From UHGV virus genome UHGV-0113711: 34,173 nucleotides of DNA. One strand, given 5' to 3'. A program made the position numbers and the translations under genes. The notes under the pieces are model-generated. The model saw nothing but the letters and a program-made list of their open reading frames with translations, had not been told where the DNA came from and did not search any database. Below, piece by piece: positions 29,220-29,977 of the stretch. This stretch comes from a virus. Numbering within the stretch: the first letter of the stretch is position 1; the number at the start of each line of letters is the position of its first letter.

Positions 29220-29504
29220 ATGGTCGATATAGCACTGATCATTTCCATCTTGGGTGCTCTAGGAGGTTTCTTGGCTTGGGTTTATGCCGAAATTAAATCA
29301 AACAATGAAAAACGAATTGACCTTGAGAAACGTTTCTCAGACATCGAAAAAAGCATAGCCGTTAATGACGCAAAAGATGCTTCGCTTATAAGCGATATAA
29401 CACGACAACAGGATGAATTTCGAGAGGTCAAATCTGATTTGAAGAATTTAGAAGGAAGAACAGCAAAGCTAGATATCGACCTAGCAGTTCTAAGAGGAAA
29501 ATGA
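29220..29504 (+). CDS. Small membrane protein (94 aa): N-terminal transmembrane helix plus coiled coil; holin- or spanin-like
   Basis: MVDIALIISILGALGGFLAWVYAEI is a predicted transmembrane segment, followed by a charged coiled-coil region. AAAGGAG ribosome-binding site. Confidence 0.6.
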   Translation: MVDIALIISILGALGGFLAWVYAEIKSNNEKRIDLEKRFSDIEKSIAVNDAKDASLISDITRQQDEFREVKSDLKNLEGRTAKLDIDLAVLRGK

Positions 29505-29977
29505 AAAGAAAAGAGATTCCGATTTATAAGCAAGAACTCTTTCAAAAGCAAAAAGGTCTTTGTGCTTTAACTGGCATAAAGATTCATGAAGTTAATAAAG
29601 CCCATCTTGACCATGACCATATATTAACAGGCTCTAACGCAGGCAGATGCAGAGGATTATTAATCGCTCAAGCAAACGTCCTAGAGGGCAGAATAAAACA
29701 TCAGTTTAAACGTTCGGGTCTCGATGGGAAAATTGACTACATCGAGTTTTTGAAGAATCTTGTTCAGTATCTTGAAAAAGACTACTCAGACAATCCTACG
29801 CATCCACAACTTATTCCTGATTTAAAGAAGGCGTTCTCTCGAAAAAATCTTTCTGAGATGAAAGCTATTACAGGTTCAAACCTTAAAACGAAAAAGGAGC
29901 TTGAAAAAGTCTACTCAAACCAAATAAAGGTGAAATATGAAAATGAAATATCTCCAAGCATTGGCAAAACACGCTAA
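29501..29977 (+). CDS. T4 endonuclease VII (gp49) homologue, Holliday-junction resolvase / packaging nuclease
   Basis: NKAHLDHDHILTGSNAGRCRGLL...EGRIKHQFKRSGLDGKIDYIEFLKNLVQYLEKDY aligns with T4 EndoVII ANHLDHDHELNGPKAGKVRGLL...EGQMKHKFNRSGLKGQGVDYLEWLENLLTYLKSDY. The catalytic HLDHDH is conserved, but three of the four T4 zinc-ligand Cys positions are not Cys here. Confidence 0.85.
   Translation: MKRKEIPIYKQELFQKQKGLCALTGIKIHEVNKAHLDHDHILTGSNAGRCRGLLIAQANVLEGRIKHQFKRSGLDGKIDYIEFLKNLVQYLEKDYSDNPTHPQLIPDLKKAFSRKNLSEMKAITGSNLKTKKELEKVYSNQIKVKYENEISPSIGKTR

What the first reader, a model, noticed from the sequence alone, without database searches (positions are those of the whole stretch)
29501..29977. 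T4 endonuclease VII homologue lacking most zinc-ligand cysteines
The catalytic HLDHDH block and the C-terminal dimerisation region align closely with T4 gp49, but the positions corresponding to T4 Cys23/26/58/61 read C, T, I and A here. EndoVII structure depends on that zinc site in T4, so this homologue may fold differently or be a degenerate, non-catalytic paralogue.
Basis: partly seen in the sequence, partly recalled or inferred. Interest (0 to 1): 0.35.

Follow-up and report, generated by a model that had tools for sequence, protein, structure and literature searches.

The report
Zinc-free phage endonuclease VII orthologue
This prophage gene encodes a close relative of the T4 DNA-junction-cutting enzyme endonuclease VII that has lost three of its four zinc-holding cysteines yet looks fully active and conserved, and the same loss turns out to be common across the enzyme family, so it is a modest curiosity, not a broken gene.

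Summary
ORF 29501-29977 (+) encodes a 158-aa protein 45% identical to T4 endonuclease VII. Its HLDHDH block is identical to T4's. T4 Cys23/26/58/61 read Cys21/Thr24/Ile55/Ala58, in ungapped register.

The reading "degenerate or non-catalytic" is not supported:
- All catalytic residues (T4 D40, H41, H43, R54, N62, E65) are present, and are invariant across 23 clusters apart from one E-to-D change at E65.
- dN/dS is about 0.16-0.19.
- The gene holds a fixed syntenic position in a family of temperate enterobacterial phages that carry a serine recombinase.
- An AlphaFold model is confident (pLDDT 88) and matches T4 EndoVII.

The nearest relative that keeps the ligands (C-C-H-C) sits at the same locus in a related phage contig, so the site decayed within this lineage.

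Loss of the zinc knuckle is not rare. Of 145 full-length family representatives, 72 keep four ligands and 72 keep two or fewer. All 72 of the latter retain the catalytic D, H, R and N. Sequenced Vequintavirinae phages also lack the canonical site.

Best reading: an active, zinc-knuckle-free junction-resolving enzyme of the late operon. It is a new variant of a known kind, of low to moderate interest. Biochemistry is untested.

The parts
29501..29977 (+). Gene for the 158-aa endonuclease VII homologue without the zinc knuckle
   Evidence: ORF. Pfam PF02945, 41.6 bits. T4 EndoVII E 2e-27. PHROG 423 'endonuclease VII' E 4e-36.
29561..29572 (+). Former N-terminal zinc knuckle: C21-A-L-T24 (T4 C23-L-I-C26). 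Cys21 is kept and the second ligand is Thr.
   Evidence: Ungapped alignment to T4. C21 is invariant and position 24 is T or S in all 23 clade clusters.
29603..29620 (+). HLDHDH catalytic block (D37 metal ligand; H38 and H40 catalytic), identical to T4 residues 38-43
   Evidence: Roles of the T4 residues come from PMC6083498.
29648..29653 (+). C50-R51. R51 is the conserved active-site Arg (T4 R54). C50 (T4 V53) is a clade-typical Cys.
   Evidence: C50 is present in 20 of 23 clusters and R51 is invariant. Position 53 is V, I or C in both the zinc and the zinc-less classes.
29663..29686 (+). Former C-terminal ligand pair and helix start: I55-A-Q-A58-N59-V-L-E62 (T4 C58-N-L-C61-N62-A-A-E65). N59 and E62 are the catalytic residues.
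   Evidence: V60 is specific to the clade when compared with zinc-bearing T4-like relatives.
29801..29923 (+). C-terminal region (residues 101-141) with a sub-threshold match to the T4 EndoVII dimerisation domain
   Evidence: Pfam PF09124 E 0.003, 18.1 bits against a cut-off of 22. Precomputed PF09124 hits exist on several clade members.
29220..29504 (+). Upstream 94-aa ORF (N-terminal membrane helix plus coiled coil). Its stop overlaps the EndoVII start (ATGA), and it is syntenic in all related phages.
   Evidence: (phrog_1009).
29937..30134 (+). Downstream 65-aa ORF with a membrane helix. It overlaps the EndoVII 3' end by 41 nt, and an ORF of similar size occupies the same position in relatives.

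Best explanation
The gene encodes a functional His-Me (beta-beta-alpha-metal) endonuclease of the T4 endonuclease VII type.

Shown:
- It is an orthologue of T4-type EndoVII and has all catalytic residues.
- It has lost the structural CX2C...CX2C zinc knuckle.
- It is under purifying selection.
- It is a fixed gene of the late (tail and packaging side) operon in a family of temperate Enterobacteriaceae phages that have a serine recombinase.
- A relative at the same locus still has the ligands (C-C-H-C).

Inferred:
- The zinc tether between the N-terminal hairpin and the start of the catalytic helix has been replaced by ordinary side-chain packing. The residues involved would be C21, T/S24, I/L55 and A58, perhaps helped by V60.
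- The protein still dimerises through its helical C-terminal part.
- It uses one catalytic Mg2+/Mn2+ held by D37 and N59, with H38 as general base, to nick the two strands of four-way junctions and other branches.
- This debranches concatemeric or recombining phage DNA so that the gpA-type terminase can package it. That is the job of gp49 in T4.

The confidence of 0.72 applies to 'a folded, active EndoVII without the canonical zinc site'. The specific debranching-for-packaging role alone would rate about 0.5.
For: Homology and register.

Catalytic residues: D40, H41, H43, R54 and N62 equivalents are invariant in the clade, and E65 is kept in all but one member, which has E-to-D.

Selection: dN/dS 0.16-0.19, with dS near saturation.

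Structure: AF2 pLDDT 88, pTM 0.76; the best Foldseek hits are 1e7l, 1en7 and 2qnf at E 1e-9 to 2e-8.

Synteny: DUF6950, then Phage_Tail_Tip, then an ORF of about 100 aa, then EndoVII, then ORFs of about 60 and about 178 aa. This order is seen in E. coli MS 115-1, Pantoea, Enterobacter and metagenomic contig L009. In L009 the EndoVII (P0025) still reads C-C-H-C.

Phylogeny: neighbour-joining trees built without the ligand columns put the clade next to P0025 and inside four-ligand T4-like sequences. The sister group is mostly four-ligand in 98% of 60 bootstraps.

Family-wide pattern: 72 of 145 representatives have two or fewer ligand residues, and all 72 keep D40, H41, R54 and N62. H43 is kept in 71, the other being an alignment gap.

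Expression context: no plus-strand promoter-like or terminator-like site flanks the gene, and it overlaps both neighbours, which fits late-operon expression.

The role of T4 gp49 in debranching before packaging is established knowledge (review PMC10956419).
Against: - There is no biochemical evidence for any zinc-less EndoVII, so activity, dimerisation and metal content are inferred.
- In T4 the C26S/C58S double mutant and the C61S mutant are inactive, so compensation must exist. I could not inspect the model coordinates to see it.
- AlphaFold does not model metals and tends to reproduce the family fold.
- Only one of the five models was confident (mean pLDDT 88.0, 66.8, 63.4, 62.8, 60.9).
- TM-score to the T4 chain is only 0.45. 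I attribute this to T4's extended, domain-swapped monomer, but did not test that.
- The Pfam dimerisation-domain hit is below threshold.
- The gene lies 14 kb from the terminase gene, among tail genes and between two small membrane-protein ORFs, so the packaging link is by analogy only.
- Bootstrap support for clade monophyly is modest (47-58%).
Confidence: 0.72

Rival explanations
1. Re-wired structural site. The protein still binds a structural metal, or forms a disulfide, using a new ligand set built around the retained C21 and the clade-typical C50 (or C55 in the Klebsiella aerogenes members), possibly with a histidine.
For: - C21 is invariant although its three partners are gone.
- C50 is present in 20 of 23 clusters. 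The two clusters with I50 carry Cys at position 55 instead.
- Across the family, Cys at T4 position 53 is more frequent in zinc-less representatives (29/72) than in four-ligand ones (17/72), Fisher p = 0.049. The same holds for position 38 (16/72 against 5/72, p = 0.017).
- Vequintavirus EndoVII has a shifted set of four cysteines.
Against: - Two cysteines do not make a zinc site.
- Every conserved His of the clade is also conserved in T4, where it is catalytic or otherwise engaged.
- C50 is replaced by Thr in P0005 with no compensating Cys.
- Position 53 is V, I or C in both classes, as expected of a buried strand position.
- The p-values are marginal and are not corrected for phylogeny.
- A disulfide is unlikely in the cytoplasm.
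Confidence: 0.1
2. Degenerate, non-catalytic or misfolding remnant of EndoVII. It would either be retained as a DNA-binding protein or be decaying.
For: By T4 mutagenesis, loss of C61 alone, or of C26 and C58 together, abolishes activity and DNA binding. In the MS 115-1 copy of the prophage, an IS3 element is inserted between two separate terminase CDSs, so some copies of the prophage are defective.
Against: - The catalytic residues are invariant apart from one E-to-D change, and dN/dS is 0.16-0.19.
- The reading frame is intact in all 23 clusters from at least four genera.
- The model is confident.
- All 72 zinc-less family representatives keep D40, H41, R54 and N62. That is not expected of 72 independent dead genes.
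Confidence: 0.04
3. Active nuclease with a different job from general debranching. One option is an accessory His-Me endonuclease that assists terminase cleavage at cos, as HNH proteins do in HK97-like phages (from my own knowledge of Kala et al. 2014; not checked here). Another is a mobile or conflict-related nuclease.
For: In a related phage (L012; head module 52% identical), the zinc-bearing relative P0026 lies just upstream of the gpA terminase gene. Only a 179-aa ORF separates the two. The window prophage carries defence cargo, namely a retron I-C RT-Toprim and a TIR protein.
Against: - In the window and its syntenic relatives the gene is far from the terminase gene and in a fixed position. 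That argues against a homing element.
- There is no PADLOC match.
- The similarity to T4 gp49 extends well beyond the catalytic core, to residue 122. Terminase-associated HNH proteins are not expected to share that.
Confidence: 0.12

Closest known systems
Bacteriophage T4 endonuclease VII (gp49; PDB 1EN7, 1E7D, 2QNC)
   Same: - 45% identity over 115 residues, with an identical HLDHDH block.
- D40, H41, H43, R54, N62 and E65 are all present.
- The same hairpin-loop length (L-x-G-x-x-A-G-R/K) and the same helical region after the core, to about residue 122.
- Similar total length (158 against 157 aa).
- A phage late-function context.
   Different: - Three of the four Cys ligands of the structural zinc are replaced (T24, I55, A58), and there is an extra Cys at T4 V53.
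- The last ~35 residues do not align with T4, and the dimerisation-domain HMM is below threshold.
- It is encoded by a ~34-kb temperate phage with a serine recombinase, not by a large lytic T-even phage.
P0025, the EndoVII of metagenomic phage contig L009 (wastewater), and P0026 (L012)
   Same: P0025 occupies the same locus (DUF6950, tail tip, about 100 aa, EndoVII, about 55 aa, about 177 aa) in the same type of phage. It is 49% identical and is the nearest neighbour in trees.
   Different: P0025 and P0026 keep a complete ligand set (C-C-H-C). P0026 sits next to the terminase gene, not after the tail-tip gene.
Zinc-less members of Pfam Endonuclease_7 (PF02945), e.g. the EndoVII of Vequintavirinae phages (Serratia phage ChuuTotoro; Escherichia phage bov10K2)
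   Same: They have the same catalytic D-H-x-H...R...N-x-x-E motif with the CX2C...CX2C knuckle missing. Most retain only the first Cys (53 of 72 representatives).
   Different: - They are only 30-41% identical to the query.
- Most lack the T4-type hairpin-loop insertion.
- Position 58 is usually polar (D, S, H or Q) and not Ile or Leu.
- Trees suggest the losses are independent of the one seen here.
His-Me finger / HNH endonucleases without a zinc knuckle (e.g. phage P1 Ref, cited in PMC5714182)
   Same: The general principle is the same: the beta-beta-alpha-metal core can be stabilised without the treble-clef zinc knuckle. [quoted passage not shown]
   Different: These are different families, with no detectable sequence relationship at this level and other biological roles.

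Membership tests
Endonuclease VII family (Pfam PF02945; 'DHHRN' family of PMC6083498) | Sequence match to the family profile above the curated threshold | tested here: met
   PF02945: 41.6 bits against a gathering score of 23.6, E 1.1e-10. PHROG 423: E 4e-36.
Endonuclease VII family (Pfam PF02945; 'DHHRN' family of PMC6083498) | Catalytic residues D40, H41, H43, R54 and N62 (T4 numbering) | tested here: met
   D37, H38, H40, R51 and N59 are present, and are invariant in the 23-cluster clade.
Endonuclease VII family (Pfam PF02945; 'DHHRN' family of PMC6083498) | Beta-beta-alpha-metal fold | tested here: met
   This rests on a model only. AF2 pLDDT is 88, with strands 35-38 and 49-54 followed by a helix. 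The top three Foldseek hits are T4 EndoVII chains, E 1e-9 to 2e-8, probability 1.00.
T4-type zinc-knuckle EndoVII (archetype gp49) | CX2-4C ... CX2C tetrahedral structural zinc site | tested here: not met
   The positions read C21, T24, I55, A58, and there is no conserved alternative Cys/His in register. PMC6083498 describes this pattern as 'highly conserved' in the family. However, 72 of 145 representatives lack it, so it defines the archetype and not the sequence family.
T4-type zinc-knuckle EndoVII (archetype gp49) | C-terminal dimerisation domain (Pfam PF09124) | tested here: inconclusive
   18.1 bits against a cut-off of 22, E 0.003, residues 101-141. The alignment to T4 is confident to residue 122. 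Several clade members carry precomputed PF09124 hits.
T4-type zinc-knuckle EndoVII (archetype gp49) | Structure-selective cleavage of four-way junctions and branches as a dimer | not testable with these tools
   This needs purified protein and synthetic junction substrates.
Anti-phage defence nucleases (PADLOC models) | Match to a known defence-system protein model | tested here: not met
   No PADLOC family matches at E <= 0.001.

The most novel reading that the evidence does not exclude
The lineage did more than drop the zinc. It may have replaced the zinc with a different stabilising device centred on the retained Cys21, such as a C21-C50 or C21-C55 thiol pair, or a re-wired metal site. That would make this a natural, orthologue-paired example of how a treble-clef zinc knuckle that is essential in T4 is converted into a metal-independent or redox-sensitive core. 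The zinc-bearing counterpart (P0025) at the same locus would allow direct testing by swapping residues.
Probability: 0.1. Interest if true: 0.45.

Novelty: new variant of a known kind. Interest (0 to 1): 0.25.

Why it matters
T4 endonuclease VII is the textbook junction-resolving enzyme and a laboratory reagent. Its structural zinc is treated as essential, and published family surveys describe the CX2C...CX2C pattern as highly conserved.

This work shows two things:
- About half of the enzyme's sequence relatives do without the zinc knuckle while keeping every catalytic residue.
- One enterobacterial phage lineage contains both a zinc-ligand-bearing and a zinc-ligand-free orthologue at the same locus.

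That pairing gives a clean, small system (about 155 aa, roughly 50% identity) for asking how a structural zinc site is replaced during evolution. It might also yield a zinc-independent resolvase. It does not open a new field, because loss of zinc knuckles is already known at the level of the His-Me finger superfamily.

Tried and rejected
It was repeated with clade members only.
- Model coordinates are not exposed. I could not measure what fills the former zinc site or the C21-C50 distance.
- The T4 structure paper (PMC1171234) is not held.
- The first request for the annotated region was too large. One script failed on a file path.
- I considered that the downstream ~180-aa ORF might be a small terminase subunit, because a 179-aa ORF separates EndoVII from the terminase gene in L012. 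This was rejected: the two proteins are unrelated (no BLASTP hit), and the L012 protein looks like an inserted homing endonuclease.
- I considered a second EndoVII copy in the window (the paralogue idea). tblastn finds none.
- I considered a defence role. There is no PADLOC hit.
- An Rfam scan of the window found nothing.
- Three keyword literature searches found no paper describing a zinc-less EndoVII. The searches and the held library are limited, so this is weak negative evidence.

Full report
**What is there.**
ORF 29501-29977 on the plus strand encodes 158 aa. Its ATG overlaps the stop of a 94-aa upstream ORF (ATGA) and follows a purine-rich AAGAGGAAA. Its 3' end overlaps a 65-aa downstream ORF by 41 nt. 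No plus-strand promoter-like or terminator-like site lies next to it. It therefore reads as an internal gene of a long plus-strand late operon.

**Checking the observation.**
- The protein matches Pfam Endonuclease_7 at 41.6 bits (cut-off 23.6).
- It matches PHROG 423 'endonuclease VII' at E 4e-36.
- It matches the T4 EndoVII chains 1e7d/1en7 at E 2e-27 over query 10-122.
- BLASTP against gp49 gives 45% identity over 115 residues, E 1e-33.

HLDHDH is identical in both proteins. No gaps fall between the anchoring motifs and the ligand positions, so the register is secure. The C-terminal similarity is real to about residue 122, but the dimerisation-domain HMM is below threshold (18.1 against 22 bits).

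**Is it degenerate?**
No sign of it.
- A word-indexed search of 5.8 billion proteins found 24 clusters. All full-length ones come from Enterobacteriaceae or from unlabelled assemblies: E. coli, Enterobacter hormaechei, Klebsiella aerogenes and Pantoea. NCBI already names the 98%-identical one 'endonuclease VII'.
- In the alignment of 23 clusters (52-98% identity), D37, H38, H40, R51 and N59 are invariant. They correspond to T4 D40, H41, H43, R54 and N62.
- E62 (T4 E65) is kept in all but one member, which has Asp.
- C21 is also invariant. Position 24 is always T or S, position 58 is A or V, and position 55 is I, L, V or T, with C in two clusters and H in two.
- dN/dS between the E. coli, Enterobacter and Pantoea genes is 0.16-0.19, with synonymous sites near saturation.
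- tblastn finds no second copy in the window.

**Alternative ligands.**
The Cys/His columns that are invariant or nearly so in the clade are C21, H35, H38, H40, C50 (20 of 23), H67 and H101. Every one of those histidines is also present in T4, where none is a zinc ligand. C50 aligns with T4 V53. That position is V, I or C in both zinc-bearing and zinc-less relatives. A canonical or in-register replacement zinc site is thus not present. A re-wired site around C21 and C50 cannot be excluded without coordinates or metal analysis.

**Structure.**
An AlphaFold2 model built from the clade alignment has mean pLDDT 88 and pTM 0.76. Block means are 93-97 over residues 1-40 and 87 over residues 51-60. 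It shows a beta-hairpin (35-38, 49-54) followed by helices. Only the best of the five models was confident.

**Genomic context.**
The window is a rare E. coli prophage. The 14-kb right part occurs in 7 of 5,426 complete genomes, next to ldtB/ybiR, and one of those genomes is strain MS 115-1. It encodes:
- a large serine recombinase (1515-3020);
- a lysozyme;
- a TIR protein (PADLOC candidate PDC-S35);
- a retron type I-C RT-Toprim (8588-10357, minus strand; NCBI labels the MS 115-1 copy 'retron Ec67 family');
- a gpA-type large terminase (13648-15531);
- a lambda-type portal;
- a protease-capsid fusion;
- a tail fibre;
- a 1,229-aa tail-tip protein;
- a tape-measure protein.

EndoVII follows the tail-tip gene. 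The order is DUF6950, Phage_Tail_Tip, an ORF of about 100 aa, EndoVII, an ORF of about 60 aa, then one of about 178 aa. This order is kept in Pantoea (L006), Enterobacter (L007, L008) and a 32-kb wastewater contig (L009). The ~178-aa proteins are 55-68% identical to each other. The gene is therefore a stable component of this phage type and not a mobile insertion.

**Where the zinc ligands were lost.**
The exhaustive profile-free search of 1.84 billion cluster representatives gave 267 relatives at E <= 0.001. The nearest relatives outside the clade all have a full ligand set: P0025, P0026, P0027, P0028 and others at 42-49% identity read C-C-H/C-C.
- P0025 is encoded at the same syntenic locus in L009.
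- P0026 is in a phage with a homologous head module, but next to the terminase gene.
- P0027 is in a T4-like genome.

Neighbour-joining trees built without the four ligand columns place the clade beside P0025 and within four-ligand T4-like sequences.
- The sister group is mostly four-ligand in 98% of 60 bootstraps.
- Clade monophyly is supported in 47-58% of bootstraps.

The simplest reading is that the knuckle decayed within this temperate-phage lineage, at an orthologous locus. The C55 and H55 residues in the Klebsiella and Pantoea members may be vestiges or reversions. The tree does not decide.

**How unusual is this?**
Less than it looks. Of 145 full-length representatives among the best 150:
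- 72 have all four ligand residues (CCCC 41, CCHC 31);
- 72 have two or fewer;
- only one has three.

The site is therefore kept or lost as a unit. The zinc-less half keeps D40, H41, R54 and N62 in 72 of 72, and H43 in 71 (the other is an alignment gap). It usually retains only the first Cys (53 of 72), or has Asp there (17 of 72).

Sequenced phages show the same thing. The EndoVII of Serratia phage ChuuTotoro reads C-L-S-V at the four positions. That of Escherichia phage bov10K2 (Vequintavirus) lacks all four. phiKMV-like podophages keep them.

The literature I could search describes the family as having a 'highly conserved' CX2-4C/CX2C pattern (PMC6083498). It reports that T4 C23S, C61S and the C26S/C58S double mutant are inactive. 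At superfamily level it is already stated that many His-Me fingers lack the zinc knuckle (PMC5714182). I found no paper describing zinc-less EndoVII.

**Mechanism proposed.**
Shown: homology, an intact active site, loss of the ligands, purifying selection and conserved late-operon synteny.

Inferred:
- The fold is held by side-chain packing in place of zinc. The residues would be C21, T/S24, I/L55 and A58. V60, R64, Q68, I78 and F83 are clade-specific candidates for compensation.
- The protein dimerises.
- It uses a single Mg2+/Mn2+ bound by D37 and N59, with H38 as base.
- It resolves junctions and branches in replicating phage DNA ahead of packaging, as gp49 does in T4 (PMC10956419).

**Rivals.**
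- A re-wired thiol or metal site around C21 and C50.
- A terminase-accessory or other nuclease role.
- A dead remnant, which is the least likely.

**Verdict.**
The feature is a common, though apparently undescribed, variant within a known enzyme family. The most useful by-product is the orthologous pair, with and without the ligands, in one phage lineage.

Noticed in passing
window 8588-10357 (-): A 589-aa retron reverse transcriptase fused to a Toprim nuclease (PADLOC RT-Toprim_I-C, E 7e-216). NCBI labels the MS 115-1 copy 'retron Ec67 family'. Rfam finds no msr/msd RNA at gathering thresholds. From memory, retron Ec67 was described on a ~34-kb foreign element in E. coli, which matches the window's length; I did not verify this.
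   Followed up: partly
window 6326-7222 (+), with the 99-aa ORF 6027-6326 upstream: A TIR-domain protein (Pfam CAP12-PCTIR_TIR, E 5e-38) matching the PADLOC candidate system PDC-S35 (E 1e-70). It is probably defence cargo of the prophage, next to the retron.
   Followed up: partly
window 3945-5293 (-) compared with 31774-34173 (+); compare L009 1-7615: The tail hub genes (DUF2163 / baseplate-hub N-domain) lie on the minus strand near the left end. The tape-measure gene ends exactly at the right end of the window, and chaperone-like genes follow EndoVII. Related contig L009 has the usual order: tape measure, distal tail, hub, DUF6950, tip. The prophage looks permuted or inverted relative to its relatives. 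In Enterobacter (L007) the recombinase and attachment end fall at yet another place.
   Followed up: no
L001 9912-13020 (E. coli MS 115-1): In MS 115-1, the terminase is annotated as two separate CDSs with an IS3-family element between them, so that copy of the prophage is probably defective. In strain 2021CK-01361 an IS5-like ISEc68 lies in the region.
   Followed up: no
L012 8001-10915: In a related phage the zinc-bearing EndoVII (P0026) sits directly upstream of the gpA terminase gene. A 179-aa ORF with repeated K-x-S-x-x-x-K-G motifs separates them. It looks like an inserted GIY-YIG/NUMOD-type homing endonuclease (by eye only).
   Followed up: no
L002 301-807 (Escherichia phage vb_EcoM_bov10K2): The Vequintavirus EndoVII lacks Cys at all four canonical positions. 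It has Cys at roughly T4 positions 27, 38, 53 and 60, which may be a shifted, re-wired metal site. The deposited CDS (529-807) appears to be truncated at the N-terminus and omits the catalytic block.
   Followed up: no
alignment of family representatives: Among zinc-less EndoVII representatives with Asp at T4 position 23, Asp also occupies position 58 in 10 of 17. This may be a carboxylate pair that replaces the Cys pair.
   Followed up: no
window 29220-29504 and 29937-30134 (+): EndoVII is bracketed by two small ORFs, each with a predicted membrane helix. The first also has a coiled-coil tail and matches phrog_1009. ORFs of similar size occupy both positions in all related phages examined, but no sequence similarity between them was detected. 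They might be lysis or membrane-associated proteins, which would be odd neighbours for a nuclease.
   Followed up: no
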